64,000 nucleotides of DNA from Pocillopora damicornis. Lineage: Eukaryota. The DNA lies in assembly GCF_003704095.1 (NCBI RefSeq), contig NW_020847687.1:1-64000 (forward strand), written 5' to 3'. Made by a program: the position numbers. Every line of letters starts with the position of its first letter. Within the stretch, counting starts at the first letter, position 1. This document shows positions 9,001 through 15,000 of this stretch, in pieces.

Positions 9001-12000
9001 TAACATCTAATTTCTCCTTGCAATATACTCCCTGAATCACACATTAAGCTCACAAGAATAAAGGAAATGATCACCAACTTTTTAAAGAAGCATTTGATTG
9101 TTAAACAAATTCTCCTTGTCAGCACCCTAAGAAATGTATGATGAACAGTATGGAGAATATGAATTCTGATGTTAGAGTGTAAAGGGTTAACATAAGTTAT
9201 TCTATCATTCTATTAATCGCCCTTTGTTTCCTTTTCCCTAAACTTTCCTTCTCCCTTATGACTGCAACATAATGTTCTCATGATTAAAAAAAAAAGTGTA
9301 TAATGAAAGAAGTCATACTAACCTTTCCCTTTGAATTCCCTGTGTAAATGTATTCTCCTTTTCTATCAAAAGATGCCACAATGTTCTGTTCAGACTAAGC
9401 AAACACAAATTTGGTATTTTAGTTCAGATATTCAGTCACCACATTCATGTTTATTTGCTGAATTGTAAGTTTTCCAAATGTTTACAAACAAGTCACAGGA
9501 CTCTTTGGTGTGACACTTAGCAGCAATGTACAAACCATTTAACTCCCATGAGTGACCAAAACAGAATTTCTCCTTACAATATCAATACAGTACCTCAATA
9601 CAATACCAAGCCACTGAGTGACAAGAAGAAAAGGGATTATTAGTTAATCTAAAACCAAATTCTTTTCACTAACATCATAATAATTGTATGGCATCCAGTA
9701 AGGAGAATTACTTAAAAGATCTTGGGAGTGATGGGGTTAATAAAACAAGAGTAGCAGTGATGAGGGGAGGAAAAAAAGGAGCTGACCATTGGATTTTCCT
9801 TCATCATGTTCTTCTCAGTCTCTTTATGGTTAATCAGTGGTCTTTTACCATGGGAAAGTTTTCTCCCTCTCTTTAAGACATTTATCGTTCCTTTTGATGT
9901 CATTTTTCTTGTCCTTGAAGACTCCTTAGCTGAAGCAACTCTTGGGTATAGTGAAAAGGTGCTCAAGGAATTATTGATGTGTGAAAACAAGGAAGAATCT
10001 GAAGAGGGATTCTTTCCCAGAACTTATTAAGACATTAGTCCTCTTGCCAACAAACAACTCCCAGCATTTCACACTTTGTAAAAGTGTTTTTATTTCTCAT
10101 TTCTTGCATAATTGTCACTTTGCTTGGTTAAATCAACTTTAACAAAGATCTTTAGTATCACCATTAGGCCACTAGGCTTTGGGAACAAAGGATGTCATCT
10201 TGGAAATTAAATGATTTTGAATTATGAGTTTGAGGGCATGATGCAAAGTCCCAGTTTTTAAAATATTACTTGCAGAAAAATAGCTTGAAATTAAGTCTCC
10301 AGCATTCATGTAATAGTAATGTTAAAAATACATTCACAAACAGCCAAATAAAAAAATGGATCACCATCTTTAGCTAGATGAACAAAAGAGACTCAGAGAG
10401 CGCAATTCTCGACCTAAATTTTGAAGGCCTTGATGGATAAACTCACATCACTATACCACAATCTCCTGTTCTGACATTTCTTAATGGAAATGCTGCTCAA
10501 TAAGTATCACAAGTTATGATGTTATAGCTATGTAGCCTAAGGCAGACTCTCTGTTGGTGGAAACTAGCAAAATTGGTGATGGCCTGAAAAGAAGTAATGA
10601 AGAGCAGGCCAAGTGGTGAGGTTCCTTCCAACTTTCCTTCCAATTTTTTCTTTTTTGCTCACCCAGATTTTTTGCTTGCTACTGAAAACTTACAGTTTAA
10701 AACAGGTTGATAGCCATGCAATGAATCAAATGAATGTGCAGCCTTTCTTGATATTACTGTAATTCTAAATTTTGAAGTTGCAAAATCCCATCCTGTGTGA
10801 GGATGTTACGCAATGAAACATGATTCTTGTGCAGCTCTTTCTCATAATAAGTGATCTGAGGAGGAAACCACTGCTGTAAATCTTCAAAGCATTTACTAAA
10901 TTTACAACACTGTTCTTCATTTCTGCTGCATTTTATTGCAATGTACAAAATAATGCTGACTGGACTAAAAAGCAGATCTCCTTCAGCAAGAATGGCAATG
11001 AAGCTGGAATCGATGCTGGAGAAGTGTTCAGCTTCTTTTCTTGTTATGACCACAGCACATGACCAATGACACAGATTACGAAGATTGCTGAGGTCAGAAT
11101 ACAACTTGTCACATTCTTCGTTGCACAAATCAGTTGCTCTTTTTTTGTCTCCATTAGTGTAATAAAACAGACACTTTACAGCACTGCTATGAATTCCACC
11201 ATCTTCAAATCCAGATGGGTGCTTCAATACTCCTGCCTTTGAAATCCAACTTTCAGCTTGAGCTAACAACCCCTGCTGCTGTTCAGCACTTGAGCCACAT
11301 GTTGATAATGCCATTAGATGATAGCTGTCACCAAGGGAAAGAAACAGCAGCTTCTCATAAGCACTTTGGAAACTTGGGTCTGTGATAACCCTTGGCAAAT
11401 CATCTAAAATCACTTTTGCAACATGCTCGACTTTACCACTTTCTAATCTGCGGAAGAAAAAGTGTTTGAACTCCTGCAAGGTTTCAGTTAGATGCATTGA
11501 TTCAAAGTAGTTCTCATTGTTTTGGAAATGATTTAGGCTGTTGTGTGAATTAACTTGTGCTAACTGAGATTCCGCATTGCTGGGGGAATCAGAATTCTTC
11601 AAGACCAGGTACAGAGTAACAAAGTCACCACTTGACCTGAACGTGTCTGCAGCAAGTTGCGACTGTAAGATGGCAAGGGGAAGATCGCTCACCATAGATT
11701 CAAGAATGGATATTGCATCCTTTCGTTGCTCAAAATCCAAGTGATCCATCATGTTATTTGATACTACAAAGTAATTTGGGCATGTCCCACTTGTCGTGTA
11801 GGACAGCAGTTCTTCAATTATGACTAAAATGCACTCCAGAATTCTCTCCTCATCCCAAGAACTCTCAGGCATTCTTTCGGAAAGCCAAAAAATAGCAGTC
11901 TTAATGAAATAAGAGCAAATCACTTTTGGCTCTGCGCTTAAGTTTTCTTTGCACAGAGATTTCACTGCGATGTAACATTTGATCTTCACGTCACTCCAAC

Positions 12001-15000
12001 ATCGGATTAGTGTTTTTTCTGCTAGAGAGAAAGACAATCGCCATTCTTTGCCTCGATCTTCACTGCACGGATGACCGACACCGACGTACAAGCACCCTTT
12101 AGAAACGATTTTCTCTATAATTTCCGGACTAGGTTGGTTAAATTCTCTCGGGCGAGAAGCAAATTCAGAGGCGATGTCAGGCCATTCGCAACACGGTAAC
12201 GCACAAACAAAGTCTTGATTGTGGGCATCATCTGTTAGCGCAGGACCATGTTCTGTAAGATCACCAAAAAAATCGTCATCATTTTCGGTCTCTTCTGGGT
12301 CCGATTCCAACATGAACGCCTTCACGACATCACTTCTGAGAAATCCGTCATTTTCAGTTAGCTTAAAATCATTATGTCCGCTTTTGACGTTATTTCGACG
12401 TAAATGCACATAGCCTGGGTGGAGATCACTAGCGATGAAATAAGAAACTTCTTTCTCTTCTTCAATGATACTTGTAGACTGATTAACGACTCGAAAATTG
12501 TGGTTAACAAACATGAAATCATCGTCGGCTGCTCGCTCTATTCCTTCAGCTTTGCTGCCAGTGTAGTGAAACGTAACTAGCGTTTGCGAGTCATCCATGG
12601 ACTTAAAGTTGTACAAGTATTCGCTTAAATCACAACCACATCTCACCGGTTGACAGCCAATTAAAAATCCTGATAATATAAAATTTATCGTGTCATTCAG
12701 TGCAGGAGATGACAATGGCAGACAATTAGTCGATTCGTCAAGAGAAGTCGAAGCTTCGTTGCTCTCCTCTTGAGCTTCCGCCATTTTGTTTTGCTGTTTG
12801 GAGTCTGGGAGATATGGGAAAGGGTGGCGTTGCGTGACATCACAGCAAAGGGGAGTGATAAAAAGACAGTGTTATGACGGGTTTCTCGCTCAGGATTTCC
12901 GTCTCGTTCACGCAAAAAATAGTAAATAAATAATAAAAATTAAAATAAATTGCAATGTAACCATACATTCATGATGTTGGAATTTTGGTAGCCAGGTCGT
13001 TTTTTTTTTTTAAATATATGGAATAACCACTTACGGATGTAGAGGAGTGAACAGCGCACTTAAAAAAATGGCACTATTCCAAGATTTCCTACAAGCTAGC
13101 TCTCACACAAGGTTCAGGCTGAGATTCAGAGAGGAGTATAAAGGAGCTTGCAAAAGGAGAGCTCATACACAAGCTAACTCAAAGAAGCATAGGGAAGTCA
13201 CCTGCCTGATGCTAGTTAGGATACACTCTAGTGTCAAACCAAGTAGCAGCTGGAAATGTTGAAATTCGCCTTTACCTAACAGTCCCCTCTGATCCAGTGA
13301 ATGTTGTTATCAATCGTTTGTTTTTCTTATTCCAAATTCATTTATCTTCTTTTTCTTGTTCATTAACCCTTTTACTCCCACAAGTGACTAAGACAGAATT
13401 TCTCCTTACAATGTCAATACAATATCAACCAGATAGGTGATGAGAATAAAGAAAAATATCAATTTGGGGATAATTAGTTGATCCAATACTAAATTCTCTG
13501 AACTACCATTATAAGAATTGTATGGTTGACAGTAAGGAGAATTACAAATTTGATCTGGGATTTAAAGGGTTACCTCATAACATCTTTACACACTATCTAA
13601 ATTCAATCATCTAAATCATGCTCATCTCAGTTAGTCCCTTTTCCTCCCTACCAACTGGTGGCTAAAGAGCCTGGCCTTACAGGCCATTTGAAACTCAAGT
13701 GGGGTACCATAGAACCATGGATACAGGTACAAGGAAATGTGTGCATGTTAGAGGGAAGAACTGAAAATCAGATCTTGGAAGTAAAAAAGGTTAAGTAAAA
13801 GAGAGTGCACTTACAGGAAAATCTCTTGTTTTCAAATGAAGAGGTCGTCAGAGGTATGACATTCCCGGGCTAGGTTGTTAGATAAGTGGGTCATTGTTTA
13901 TTTACACTGATGTTAATACAAAGATGTATGTAGTAGCTAAGCAAAGTGTGATACAGTTTCACTGAACGTACGGTTGATCACTCAGGAAAACCTTGCCAAG
14001 AAGCTAACATTTTTTTGGGCAAGAAAAGGATGAAAGCAAGATAAGGATAACCTTTGTTTTACTCCCTGTTCCCTTTAAATTGCATTTGCTATGTTCCCTT
14101 TAGTCATCACCCTGATTGGGTGCCTGTTTGCAGACTGGTTTGTGCATGGAGCACTTTATCAAAAAGGAGAAGGTCTTTTTTTTGGTTTCTCTTTTCACTG
14201 ACATTGTATGCAGCTGAGAAACATTCTGTATCAAATAGTTACCTTACAATTTCAAATTACCTAAAATATTGAGAAAGTTCCTTTAGAGCAAGTATTTTTA
14301 ATTCATAATTAACATTTTACCAATATTTAAAAATATAACCTTTATGAATACATTAAAATGTTGAATTACCTCTCCACCATTTGGCAGAGAAAAGTGCTGT
14401 CCATCCAGCTTGACAAGTACTGGTGAATGTTTCATAGGACACACAAGTATGATGTTACTACAACAAGAACAAAATGTGTTTGGAATCAGTCTTGATGAAC
14501 TGTTCTCAAAGGAGTAATTTCTTTCCTCGCCACACACACTTGCTTGGCTGAGTTCAAAATACTTTTCCCATGGAAAATAGCTATCAAGAAACTCTAAAAA
14601 AAACCCATTCAGAGAAATCATTGTGAAGAATTTGTTAGAAATTTGATCAATTTTTTTTAGATTGCTGTTATGAATTGTGATCATCACACTATCAAATGAT
14701 CCACAGTCAAATTCAGACTGCCTAGCTCTTTAACTCCCATGAGTGACCAAGACAGAATTTCTCCTTACAATATCAATACAATATCAACCAGACAAGTGAT
14801 GAGAATAAAGAAAACTACCAATTTGAGGATAATTAGTTGATCCGATAATAAATTCTCTGAACTAACATTATAAAAATTGTATGGTTGACAGTAAGGAGAA
14901 TTACAAATTTGGTCTAAGAGTTAAAGGGTCAACCCTTGATATCCTAACATCAGTAGGCATATTCTCCATACTGCTCTCATTACATTTCCTAAGATGCTAG

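What the first reader, a model, noticed from the sequence alone, without database searches (positions are those of the whole stretch)
10754..12910. Catalytically intact cGAS-like receptor nested on the same strand inside an RBBP5 intron
Seen: a 2-kb intronless ORF in RBBP5 intron 9395-14369 with the GS motif, DxD and third Asp intact. Its 5' half and upstream region are CpG-rich within an otherwise CpG-poor gene body, and a YY1-like CAAAATGGCGG overlaps its ATG. Known: cGLRs make cyclic dinucleotide signals for STING and are expanded in corals; most nested genes are antisense to their host. Inference: an immune sensor, possibly retroposed, with its own unmethylated promoter and a polyA site that RBBP5 transcripts must read through.
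Basis: partly seen in the sequence, partly recalled or inferred. Interest (0 to 1): 0.75.

Follow-up and report, generated by a model that had tools for sequence, protein, structure and literature searches.

The report
Mab-21/cGLR-like gene nested in RBBP5 intron
A single-exon gene for a cGAS-like (Mab-21 family) protein sits, on the same strand, inside an intron of the chromatin gene RBBP5 and has its own CpG-rich 5' end; it is a fairly ordinary new member of a very large invertebrate gene family in a somewhat unusual place.

Summary
A 676-codon ORF (10754-12784, minus strand) lies in a GT..AG, phase-0 intron (9395-14369). The exons on either side match RBBP5 residues 121-146 and 151-174 on the same strand. 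Both Mab-21 Pfam domains pass their cut-offs. The best solved relatives are human MB21D2 and a cGLR1. YTGS, D87-D88-D89 and D191 are present, but the layout departs from the published cGLR pattern in three details (against the passages).

CpG o/e is 1.0-1.3 over 12001-13000, against 0.05-0.25 in the surrounding RBBP5 body. CAAAATGGCGG overlaps the ATG.

- The protein is very acidic (pI 4.8), which argues against dsDNA or dsRNA sensing.
- It carries a 317-aa C-terminal part with no known family.
- I found no mark of retroposition.
- The organism is undetermined.

Verdict: a new member of a known kind, of modest interest. Whether it is catalytically active is open.

The parts
10754..12784 (-). 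Uninterrupted coding sequence of a 676-aa Mab-21 / cGLR-like protein (P0001). The ATG is at 12784-12782 and the stop codon at 10756-10754.
   Evidence: Pfam Mab-21 (E 7.5e-08, 33.1 bits against a cut-off of 24.1, residues 144-260) and Mab-21_C (E 3.5e-15, 56.4 bits against 24.1, residues 269-359). PDB hits.
12209..12565 (-). Putative active-site region, residues 74-192: YTGS 74-77, D87-D88-D89-F90 and Q190-D191-F192.
   Evidence: One search gives the motif positions. In one search, phmmer aligns the query's nqDfvcal with svDltlgi of cGLR1 chain 8gjy_A. That this Asp is the catalytic one in 8gjy is my recollection of cGAS-family alignments, not the result of a call.
12221..12337 (-). Acid-rich stretch, about residues 150-188, between the DxD strand and D191. 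It lengthens the spacer to 99 residues.
   Evidence: Sequence and spacing. That it is a loop insertion is an inference.
10757..11707 (-). C-terminal 317 residues (360-676) with no recognisable family.
   Evidence: No Pfam family at a meaningful E-value (one chance-level hit at E 0.11). No PDB match at E up to 10. The Atlas search by features gave only weak leads: 0.91 to an unnamed cluster and 0.90 to a 676-aa Mab-21_C cluster.
12001..13000. CpG-rich block (CpG o/e 1.0-1.3; 50 CpG in the five 200-nt windows, 51 in the two 500-nt bins). It covers about 215 nt upstream of the ATG and the first 260 or so codons.
12778..12788 (-). CAAAATGGCGG overlapping the start codon, with A at -3 and G at +4. 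It resembles a YY1 site.
   Evidence: The core AANATGGCG occurs 5 times in the window against 0.88 expected, and 0 of 100 shuffles reach 5. The YY1 consensus is recalled, not tested.
10089..10094 (-). First canonical AATAAA downstream of the stop, about 660 nt into the putative 3' UTR, followed by a GT-rich stretch. It is the candidate poly(A) signal.
   Evidence: Whether it is used is an inference.
9395..14369 (-). The RBBP5 intron that holds the gene: 4975 nt, GT..AG, phase 0.
14370..14457 (-). RBBP5 exon immediately upstream of the host intron.
   Evidence: 4 of 4 hits are RBBP5 (residues 121-146 of the 538-aa chain), best E 0.058.
9323..9394 (-). RBBP5 exon immediately downstream of the host intron.
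   Evidence: RBBP5 residues 151-174, E 9.4e-10.
16125..16304 (-). An earlier RBBP5 exon lying within this open stretch. It fixes the identity and direction of the host gene.
   Evidence: RBBP5 residues 15-71, E 4.6e-28.
17501..19000 (.). CpG-rich block at the 5' end of RBBP5 (o/e up to 1.71), the probable host promoter.
   Evidence: An MNLELL... frame appears at 17808-17924; that this is the RBBP5 N-terminus is my recollection and was not searched.

Best explanation
This is an independent gene with a single coding exon for a Mab-21 superfamily protein of the cGAS-like receptor (cGLR) kind. It lies on the same strand as its host, inside the intron between the RBBP5 exons that encode residues ~121-150 and ~151-174.

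Shown here:
- the open frame;
- both Mab-21 domains;
- the host exons and their splice sites;
- the CpG pattern.

Inferred:
1. The gene is transcribed from its own promoter in the CpG-rich block around 12.8-13.0 kb. The YY1-like element at the ATG suggests a very short 5' UTR.
2. Its transcript ends near the AATAAA at 10.09 kb.
3. RBBP5 pre-mRNA runs through the whole unit and removes it as part of the intron.
4. The gene has been there a long time and is under purifying selection. Its 3' two thirds have decayed to the CpG-poor state of the host gene body, yet 705 codons remain open.
5. The protein keeps the G-S loop and three acidic residues of a cGLR active site. It most likely makes a nucleotide second messenger when a ligand activates it.
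6. The protein is strongly acidic (pI 4.8), so the ligand is more likely not a nucleic acid. The unassigned 317-aa C-terminal part is a candidate ligand-binding or partner-binding module.
For: Family: Pfam Mab-21 and Mab-21_C both exceed their curated cut-offs. All 19 PDB hits at E up to 1 are Mab-21-fold proteins: MB21D2 5.6e-14, cGLR1 8gjy 1.8e-10, the 'Mab-21 domain-containing protein' 7lt2 3e-05, MAB21L1 5.3e-05, and cGAS chains from 3.4e-04. In the Atlas, 24 of 30 feature hits are Mab-21 clusters, and the top three are 592-729 aa long.

Active site: YTGS, then 9 residues, DDDF, then D191. D191 is aligned to the VDL of cGLR1. On residues 55-265 the Pfam match runs from profile position 35 at residue 113, which places the GS/DxD strand near the start of the profile, where I would expect it.

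Nesting.

Own promoter: CpG o/e is 1.0-1.3 at 12001-13000 and 0.05-0.25 over 7001-12000 and 13001-17500. The AANATGGCG core is enriched, with 4 of its 5 sites in CpG-rich bins.

Selection: P(open by chance) is about 9e-21, and CpG o/e is 0.34 in codons 261-676.

Ligand: pI is 4.77 overall and 4.53 for residues 1-360. Passages in PMC9980059 say nucleic-acid-sensing cGLRs have pI above 8.5, and that acidic ones such as Pd-cGLR (pI 5.0) are predicted to take a positively charged ligand.

Precedents: 13% of cGLRs carry extra domains such as TPR or ankyrin repeats. MAB21L1 and MAB21L2 are nested in NBEA and LRBA introns, with uninterrupted coding sequence in N. vectensis and vertebrates (Fig. S10 legend of PMC1784063; PMC11511899).
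Against: The N-terminal 200 residues, which hold GS and DxD, match no solved cGAS or cGLR by sequence. The only hit was a chance one at E 1.5.

The active-site layout departs from h[QT]GS X8-20 [DE]h[DE]h X50-90 h[DE]h in three places: D88 stands where a hydrophobic residue is expected, the spacer is 99, and Gln stands before D191.

Both AlphaFold runs gave unusable models (mean pLDDT 34.6 and 34.3), so the caged NTase fold and the geometry of the triad are untested.

An intact motif does not prove activity. The passages I read say many cGLRs were inactive in vitro, that it is not understood whether Mab21L1-related proteins make a signal, and that MB21D2's ligand is unknown.

No expression, methylation or orthologue data could be consulted. 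No bacterial CD-NTase model matched (PADLOC).
Confidence: 0.6

Rival explanations
1. The gene is real and expressed, but the protein is a non-enzymatic Mab-21 protein. It would act as a scaffold or regulator, as has been discussed for MAB21L1/2, and the GS and Asp residues would be retained for structural reasons.
For: There are three departures from the published active-site pattern. The N-lobe has no detectable sequence similarity to solved cGAS or cGLRs. The best solved relative, MB21D2, has no known product or ligand, and the enzymatic role of Mab21L1-related proteins is not understood.
Against: GS and all three acidic residues are kept, with a GS-to-DxD spacing of 9 that lies within X8-20. 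The match to MAB21L1 is weaker (5.3e-05) than to MB21D2 or cGLR1.
Confidence: 0.25
2. It is a silent retrocopy or a decaying gene copy that happens still to be open.
For: The coding sequence is uninterrupted and intronic. There is an A-rich patch 70-100 nt after the stop. No expression data were available.
Against: A frame of 705 open codons has a chance probability of about 9e-21. It has stayed open even though its 3' part has undergone CpG decay to o/e 0.34, which implies a long residence. There is no poly(A) tail after a poly(A) signal, and no direct repeat with an exact seed of 10 nt or more brackets the unit, apart from 72%-identical copies of a dispersed repeat. The 5' end keeps CpG o/e above 1.
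Confidence: 0.07
3. The ORF is an alternative terminal exon of RBBP5. The phase-0 donor at 14370 would splice to the in-frame AG at 12795-12794, giving a fusion of the first ~150 RBBP5 residues to the Mab-21 protein.
For: The AG at 12795-12794 is in frame with the ORF, 9 nt before the ATG, and the upstream exon ends in phase 0. PMC3192792 describes forced exonization and cryptic polyadenylation of host transcripts upstream of nested genes.
Against: The pyrimidine tract just before that AG is weak, and the better-looking AG at 12806-12805 is out of frame. The ORF has its own ATG in a strong context and its own CpG-rich block. A WD40 propeller cut off after about 150 residues is unlikely to fold (inference).
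Confidence: 0.04
4. Assembly artefact: the ORF does not really lie in this intron.
For: The window contains three N runs, so the assembly is not gapless.
Against: None of the N runs lies between 9323 and 14457. The sequence is continuous from exon to exon, and the 3' part of the ORF shares the CpG depletion of the host gene body.
Confidence: 0.03

Closest known systems
Human MB21D2 (PDB 7lt1), an orphan cGLR
   Same: It is the best solved-structure match: E 5.6e-14 over query residues 200-353 and chain residues 216-365, covering the end of the NTase core and the helix bundle. According to passages in PMC8410604 it has a Gly-[Gly/Ser] loop and a putative triad, and its ligand is unknown.
   Different: The match covers only about 150 residues. 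The protein here is 676 aa, with a 317-aa C-terminal part that matches no PDB chain. Orthology could not be tested because no phylogeny was possible.
cGAS-like receptor 1 (PDB 8gjy) and the active invertebrate cGLRs of Li et al. 2023 (PMC9980059)
   Same: E 1.8e-10 over residues 189-354, including the aligned third Asp. The protein shares the G-S loop and acidic triad. Like Pd-cGLR (pI 5.0) it is acidic.
   Different: The strict active-site pattern is not met in three details. The N-lobe similarity is not detectable by phmmer. No product or ligand is known. My calls did not show which species 8gjy comes from.
MAB21L1 in NBEA and MAB21L2 in LRBA: conserved nested Mab-21 genes
   Same: In both cases a Mab-21 family gene with an uninterrupted coding sequence sits inside an intron of a larger gene (Fig. 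S10 legend of PMC1784063; PMC11511899 calls MAB21L2 a nested gene in LRBA).
   Different: The host here is RBBP5, not a BEACH-domain gene. The sequence match to MAB21L1 is weak (5.3e-05). The passages I read did not state the relative orientation of those pairs.
cGLRs fused to extra domains (TPR, ankyrin, death domains)
   Same: The NTase core is followed by a long extra region. Passages in PMC9980059 say 87% of cGLRs stand alone and the rest carry such modules.
   Different: No TPR, ankyrin or death-domain model matched the C-terminal 317 aa, even at E up to 10.

Membership tests
Mab-21 superfamily (Pfam PF03281 + PF20266) | Both the nucleotidyltransferase domain and the C-terminal HhH/H2TH-like helix bundle score above the curated cut-offs. 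| tested here: met
   33.1 and 56.4 bits against a cut-off of 24.1 for each; the NTase match extends to profile positions 35-195 when residues 55-265 are scanned alone.
cGLR (criteria quoted from PMC9980059) | h[QT]GS activation loop | tested here: met
   Y74-T75-G76-S77. It is the only G[SG] in the first 260 residues.
cGLR (criteria quoted from PMC9980059) | X8-20, then [DE]h[DE]h | tested here: inconclusive
   The spacer is 9 residues, which is within range. D87-D88-D89-F90 supplies both acidic residues, but the position between them is Asp rather than hydrophobic.
cGLR (criteria quoted from PMC9980059) | X50-90, then h[DE]h (third acidic residue) | tested here: not met
   The strict pattern fails: 99 residues lie between F90 and Q190, and Gln stands at the first h position. 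The Asp itself (D191) is present and is aligned by phmmer to the VDL of cGLR1 8gjy. The residue is therefore there, but the published spacing rule is exceeded by 9.
cGLR (criteria quoted from PMC9980059) | Predicted structural homology to cGLR / CD-NTase enzymes (AlphaFold2 model) | tested here: inconclusive
   The single-sequence models had mean pLDDT 34.6 (full length) and 34.3 (residues 55-365).
cGLR | [quoted passage not shown] | not testable with these tools
   This needs recombinant protein and nucleotide-product assays.
Nucleic-acid-sensing cGLRs (cGAS, Dm-cGLR1 type) | High pI (above 8.5) and a basic ligand groove, per passages of PMC9980059 | tested here: not met
   pI is 4.77 for the whole protein and 4.53 for residues 1-360, where K+R is 31 against D+E 63. 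The charge of the groove itself could not be modelled.
MB21D2 orthologue | Groups with MB21D2 in a cGLR phylogeny, or gives a reciprocal best match | not testable with these tools
   Only the PDB ranking is available (MB21D2 is the best hit).
Processed retrogene | Poly(A) tail remnant after a poly(A) signal, and flanking target-site duplications | tested here: not met
   There is no A run after the AATAAA at 10094-10089. No bracketing direct repeat with an exact seed of 10 nt or more was found except dispersed-repeat copies. Duplications shorter than 10 nt would be missed.
Same-strand nested (intronic) gene | The gene lies wholly within one intron of a host gene, on the same strand, with intact host splice sites. 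| tested here: met
Unmethylated CpG-island-like promoter | Local CpG o/e near 1 within a depleted region, and absence of methylation | tested here: inconclusive
   The composition criterion is met. Methylation and the transcription start cannot be tested here.

The most novel reading that the evidence does not exclude
An acidic cGLR with a previously undescribed C-terminal sensor module responds to a ligand that is not a nucleic acid. Because it is nested on the same strand in an essential H3K4-methyltransferase core subunit gene, its induction interferes with the host transcript through promoter occlusion or premature use of its poly(A) site. Immune activation would then be coupled to the dosage of RBBP5.
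Probability: 0.05. Interest if true: 0.6.

Novelty: new member of a known kind. Interest (0 to 1): 0.3.

Why it matters
cGLRs are a large and mostly uncharacterised family of animal pattern-recognition receptors, and the ligands of the acidic ones are unknown. This locus offers a compact candidate with a single coding exon, an unassigned C-terminal module, and a clean natural example of a same-strand nested gene with its own CpG-rich 5' end inside a CpG-depleted host. It could be used to study how an intronic promoter and poly(A) site coexist with transcription of the host. None of these features would surprise a specialist on its own: thousands of cGLRs are catalogued, and nested Mab-21 genes are a textbook case.

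Tried and rejected
- Structure prediction. AlphaFold2 without an alignment gave mean pLDDT 34.6 for the full length and 34.3 for residues 55-365. No fold search was run, because matches to such models are meaningless.
- Sequence search of the N-terminal 200 aa against the PDB: one chance hit only, at E 1.5.
- C-terminal 317 aa: nothing in the PDB at E up to 10. Pfam gave only a chance-level 7TM_GPCR_Str hit at E 0.11.
- PADLOC (bacterial CD-NTase and other defence models): 0 hits for 2 of 2 queries.
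- Transposon or composite element. The two direct copies that flank the ORF (9533-9725 and 13365-13572) belong to a dispersed repeat found at 9 places in the window. They are only 72% identical over 215 nt, and the inverted repeats found are short and imperfect. Rejected.
- Paralogues or pseudogene copies in the window: tblastn of P0001 found only itself, with all other hits at E 3.5 or more.
- The bacterial promoter/terminator scan is not applicable to a eukaryotic locus and was disregarded.
- Rfam and tRNA scans found nothing in the host intron.
- Literature. No paper in the held library links RBBP5 with a nested gene or with Mab-21 in this sense: 'rbbp5' + 'nested gene' gave 1 unrelated paper, 'rbbp5' + 'mab-21' gave 1 unrelated paper, and 'cglr' + 'intronless' gave 0.

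Not checked:
- Genome contigs holds only bacteria and archaea, so I did not use it.
- As a result, orthologues, a cGLR phylogeny, presence or absence in the RBBP5 intron of related species, and the source organism all stayed unchecked.
- Supplementary tables S1, S2 and S4 of PMC9980059 (the cGLR list, fused domains and pI values) were closed. They may already list this protein or its architecture.
- The N runs were not filled.

Full report
WHAT IS THERE. On the minus strand, 10754..12784 is a 676-codon ORF starting at an ATG, and the frame is open for 705 codons from stop to stop. It is the longest open frame in the window. In the flanking intron, 181 of 2855 codons are stops, so the chance of 705 open codons is about 9e-21. 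In 200 shuffles of the intron the longest frame averaged 101 codons and never exceeded 164.

FAMILY. Pfam gives Mab-21_C (E 3.5e-15, residues 269-359) and Mab-21 (E 7.5e-08, residues 144-260), both above their curated cut-offs. When residues 55-265 are scanned alone, the NTase match extends to profile positions 35-195, which correspond to residues 113-260.

Against solved structures, all 19 hits at E up to 1 are Mab-21-fold proteins:
- human MB21D2 7lt1, 5.6e-14
- a 'cGAS-like receptor 1' 8gjy, 1.8e-10
- 7lt2, 3e-05
- MAB21L1, 5.3e-05
- many cGAS chains, from 3.4e-04

In the ESM Atlas search by features, 24 of 30 hits are Mab-21 clusters at scores up to 0.96. The top three are 592-729 aa long, with Mollusca the commonest recorded phylum.

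ACTIVE SITE. The passages I read in PMC9980059 define cGLRs by h[QT]GS X8-20 [DE]h[DE]h X50-90 h[DE]h. PMC8410604 uses G[S/G] plus [E/D]h[E/D] X50-90 [E/D] and a length of 250-700 aa. Here the layout is Y-T-G76-S77, then 9 residues, D87-D88-D89-F90, then 99 residues, Q190-D191-F192. The GS loop and three acidic residues are therefore present, and phmmer aligns D191 with the VDL of cGLR1.

There are three departures from the pattern. Asp stands at the hydrophobic position between the two catalytic acids. The spacer exceeds 90 by 9 residues, and an acid-rich stretch at about residues 150-188 accounts for the excess. Gln precedes D191.

The N-terminal 200 residues alone match no solved cGAS or cGLR, and no bacterial CD-NTase model matched. 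Both single-sequence AlphaFold2 runs failed, with pLDDT 34.6 and 34.3. 'Catalytically intact' is therefore plausible but not demonstrated.

An intact motif is also no proof of activity. The same paper says many cGLRs were inactive in vitro and that it is not understood whether Mab21L1-related proteins make a signal. Its main text and its Figure 1 legend differ on whether Mab21L1/2 have a complete active site.

OTHER PROPERTIES OF THE PROTEIN. The pI is 4.77 overall and 4.53 for residues 1-360. PMC9980059 reports pI above 8.5 for dsDNA- and dsRNA-sensing cGLRs. It describes acidic cGLRs (Pd-cGLR, pI 5.0) as auto-active in vitro and predicts that they take a positively charged ligand.

Residues 360-676 have no Pfam or PDB match. 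The Atlas gave only weak leads for this part, one of which is a 676-aa Mab-21_C cluster at 0.90. cGLRs with appended modules are known and make up 13% of the family.

HOST GENE AND NESTING. The exon at 14370-14457 ends in a complete codon followed by GT at 14369-14368. The next exon starts at 9394, after the AG at 9396-9395, and ends at 9323 before a GT.

I searched the exons one at a time:
- 14370-14456 hits only RBBP5 chains (4 of 4, residues 121-146, best E 0.058).
- 9323-9394 hits RBBP5 residues 151-174 (E 9.4e-10; 4 of its 5 hits are RBBP5).
- 16125-16304 hits RBBP5 residues 15-71 (E 4.6e-28).

All three are on the minus strand in descending order, so the Mab-21 gene lies on the same strand as RBBP5. 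No RBBP5 residues are missing across the intron.

The intron contains no N run. The other RBBP5-like exon pieces that I recognised by eye lie mostly 400-1000 nt apart. That makes this 4975-nt intron the largest I could see. The estimate is by eye and was not verified by searches.

REGULATORY ANATOMY. CpG o/e by region:
- 12001-13000: 1.0-1.33
- 11401-12000: 0.42-0.54
- rest of 7001-17500: 0.0-0.38
- codons 1-260: 1.20
- codons 261-676: 0.34
- 12785-13000: 1.08
- 13001-14369: 0.18
- 9395-10753: 0.07

A second CpG-rich block at 17501-19000 coincides with the 5' end of RBBP5.

CAAAATGGCGG overlaps the ATG, with A at -3 and G at +4. Its core AANATGGCG occurs 5 times in the window against 0.88 expected, and 0 of 100 shuffles reach 5. 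Four of the 5 sites lie in CpG-rich 500-nt bins. The motif contains a CG, so this enrichment is partly circular. That the motif is a YY1 site is recalled, not tested.

The first canonical AATAAA on the gene's strand after the stop is at 10094-10089 and is followed by a GT-rich stretch. The next is at 9455-9450.

From the decay of CpG in the 3' two thirds, together with the preserved frame, I infer a long residence under purifying selection. The 5' end appears to be protected from germline methylation. These are inferences from composition alone.

RETROPOSITION AND MOBILE-ELEMENT ORIGIN. No A tail follows the poly(A) signal. No direct repeat with an exact seed of 10 nt or more brackets the unit, apart from two copies of a dispersed repeat of about 200 nt. 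That repeat occurs at 9 places in the window, and the two flanking copies are 72% identical over 215 nt. No convincing terminal inverted repeats were found. Retroposition is neither supported nor excluded, since old marks would have decayed.

COMPARISON WITH WHAT IS KNOWN. Nested Mab-21 genes with uninterrupted coding sequence have a classic precedent: MAB21L1 in NBEA and MAB21L2 in LRBA, conserved across metazoa (Fig. S10 legend of PMC1784063; PMC11511899). [quoted passage not shown] Same-strand nesting is therefore a minority arrangement but not a rare one. That paper also documents exonization and cryptic polyadenylation of host transcripts upstream of nested genes. This is the basis for the low-probability fusion rival, in which the in-frame AG at 12795-12794 is used.

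I found no paper linking RBBP5 to a nested Mab-21 or cGLR gene. For each paper I saw the search listing and the passages returned by 'find', not the whole text. Supplements were closed.

VERDICT. Several things remain unproven or unsupported. Catalytic competence is not shown and the active-site pattern is atypical. The likely ligand is not a nucleic acid. Retroposition and a coral origin have no support from my calls. It is a new member of a known kind, with interest of about 0.3.

Noticed in passing
window 9500-9760, 13365-13572, 14729-14904, 15157-15316, 16795-16846, 8977-9026, 26019-26073, 34196-34406: A dispersed repeat of about 200 nt occurs at 9 places in the window, on both strands, at 71-86% identity. 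Most copies lie in RBBP5 introns, and in some frames it reads as '...SDQDRISPYNINT...'. It is probably a SINE- or MITE-like element.
   Followed up: partly
window 37400-37408 (-) and 37445-37453 (+): Two AANATGGCG (YY1-like) cores on opposite strands lie 45 nt apart, at the edge of a CpG-rich region next to an N run. They may mark a bidirectional promoter.
   Followed up: no
window 37001-51000: A 14-kb stretch has CpG o/e of about 0.6-1.35 in nearly all 500-nt bins (38501-39000 is 0.44 and 44001-44500 is 0.57). It contrasts with CpG-depleted blocks at 7001-17500, 19001-37000 and 51501-62000. This mosaic pattern is typical of invertebrate gene-body methylation (recalled). The stretch holds a large + strand gene that includes an NDK-domain exon at 39995-41869 (Pfam E 3.2e-14).
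   Followed up: partly
window 49794-56089 (+): A CBL-type E3 ligase gene: Cbl_N (E 1.1e-54) at 49794-50432, a RING finger at 53659-54072, and a UBA domain (E 2.4e-04, just under its cut-off) at the end of 54623-56089.
   Followed up: partly
window 28699-29220 (+), with long Ser/Pro-rich open frames at 22662-24140 and 26534-27391: A BEN-domain exon (E 2.9e-08). The two long upstream open frames have no Pfam family and may belong to the same gene.
   Followed up: no
window 41922-41994 (-): A tRNA-like sequence (Rfam tRNA, 49.3 bits) lies just after the NDK-domain exon. ARAGORN reports an odd four-base anticodon (gcgg) and no amino-acid assignment.
   Followed up: no
window 12835-12842 (-) and 13001-13012 (-): TGATGTCA, one mismatch from the CRE/ATF palindrome as I recall it, lies about 50 nt upstream of the ATG. 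A run of 12 A lies at the upstream edge of the CpG-rich block.
   Followed up: no
window 6890-7188: An N run lies inside the RBBP5 gene, between the exon pieces at about 7335-7430 and 6559-6720.
   Followed up: no
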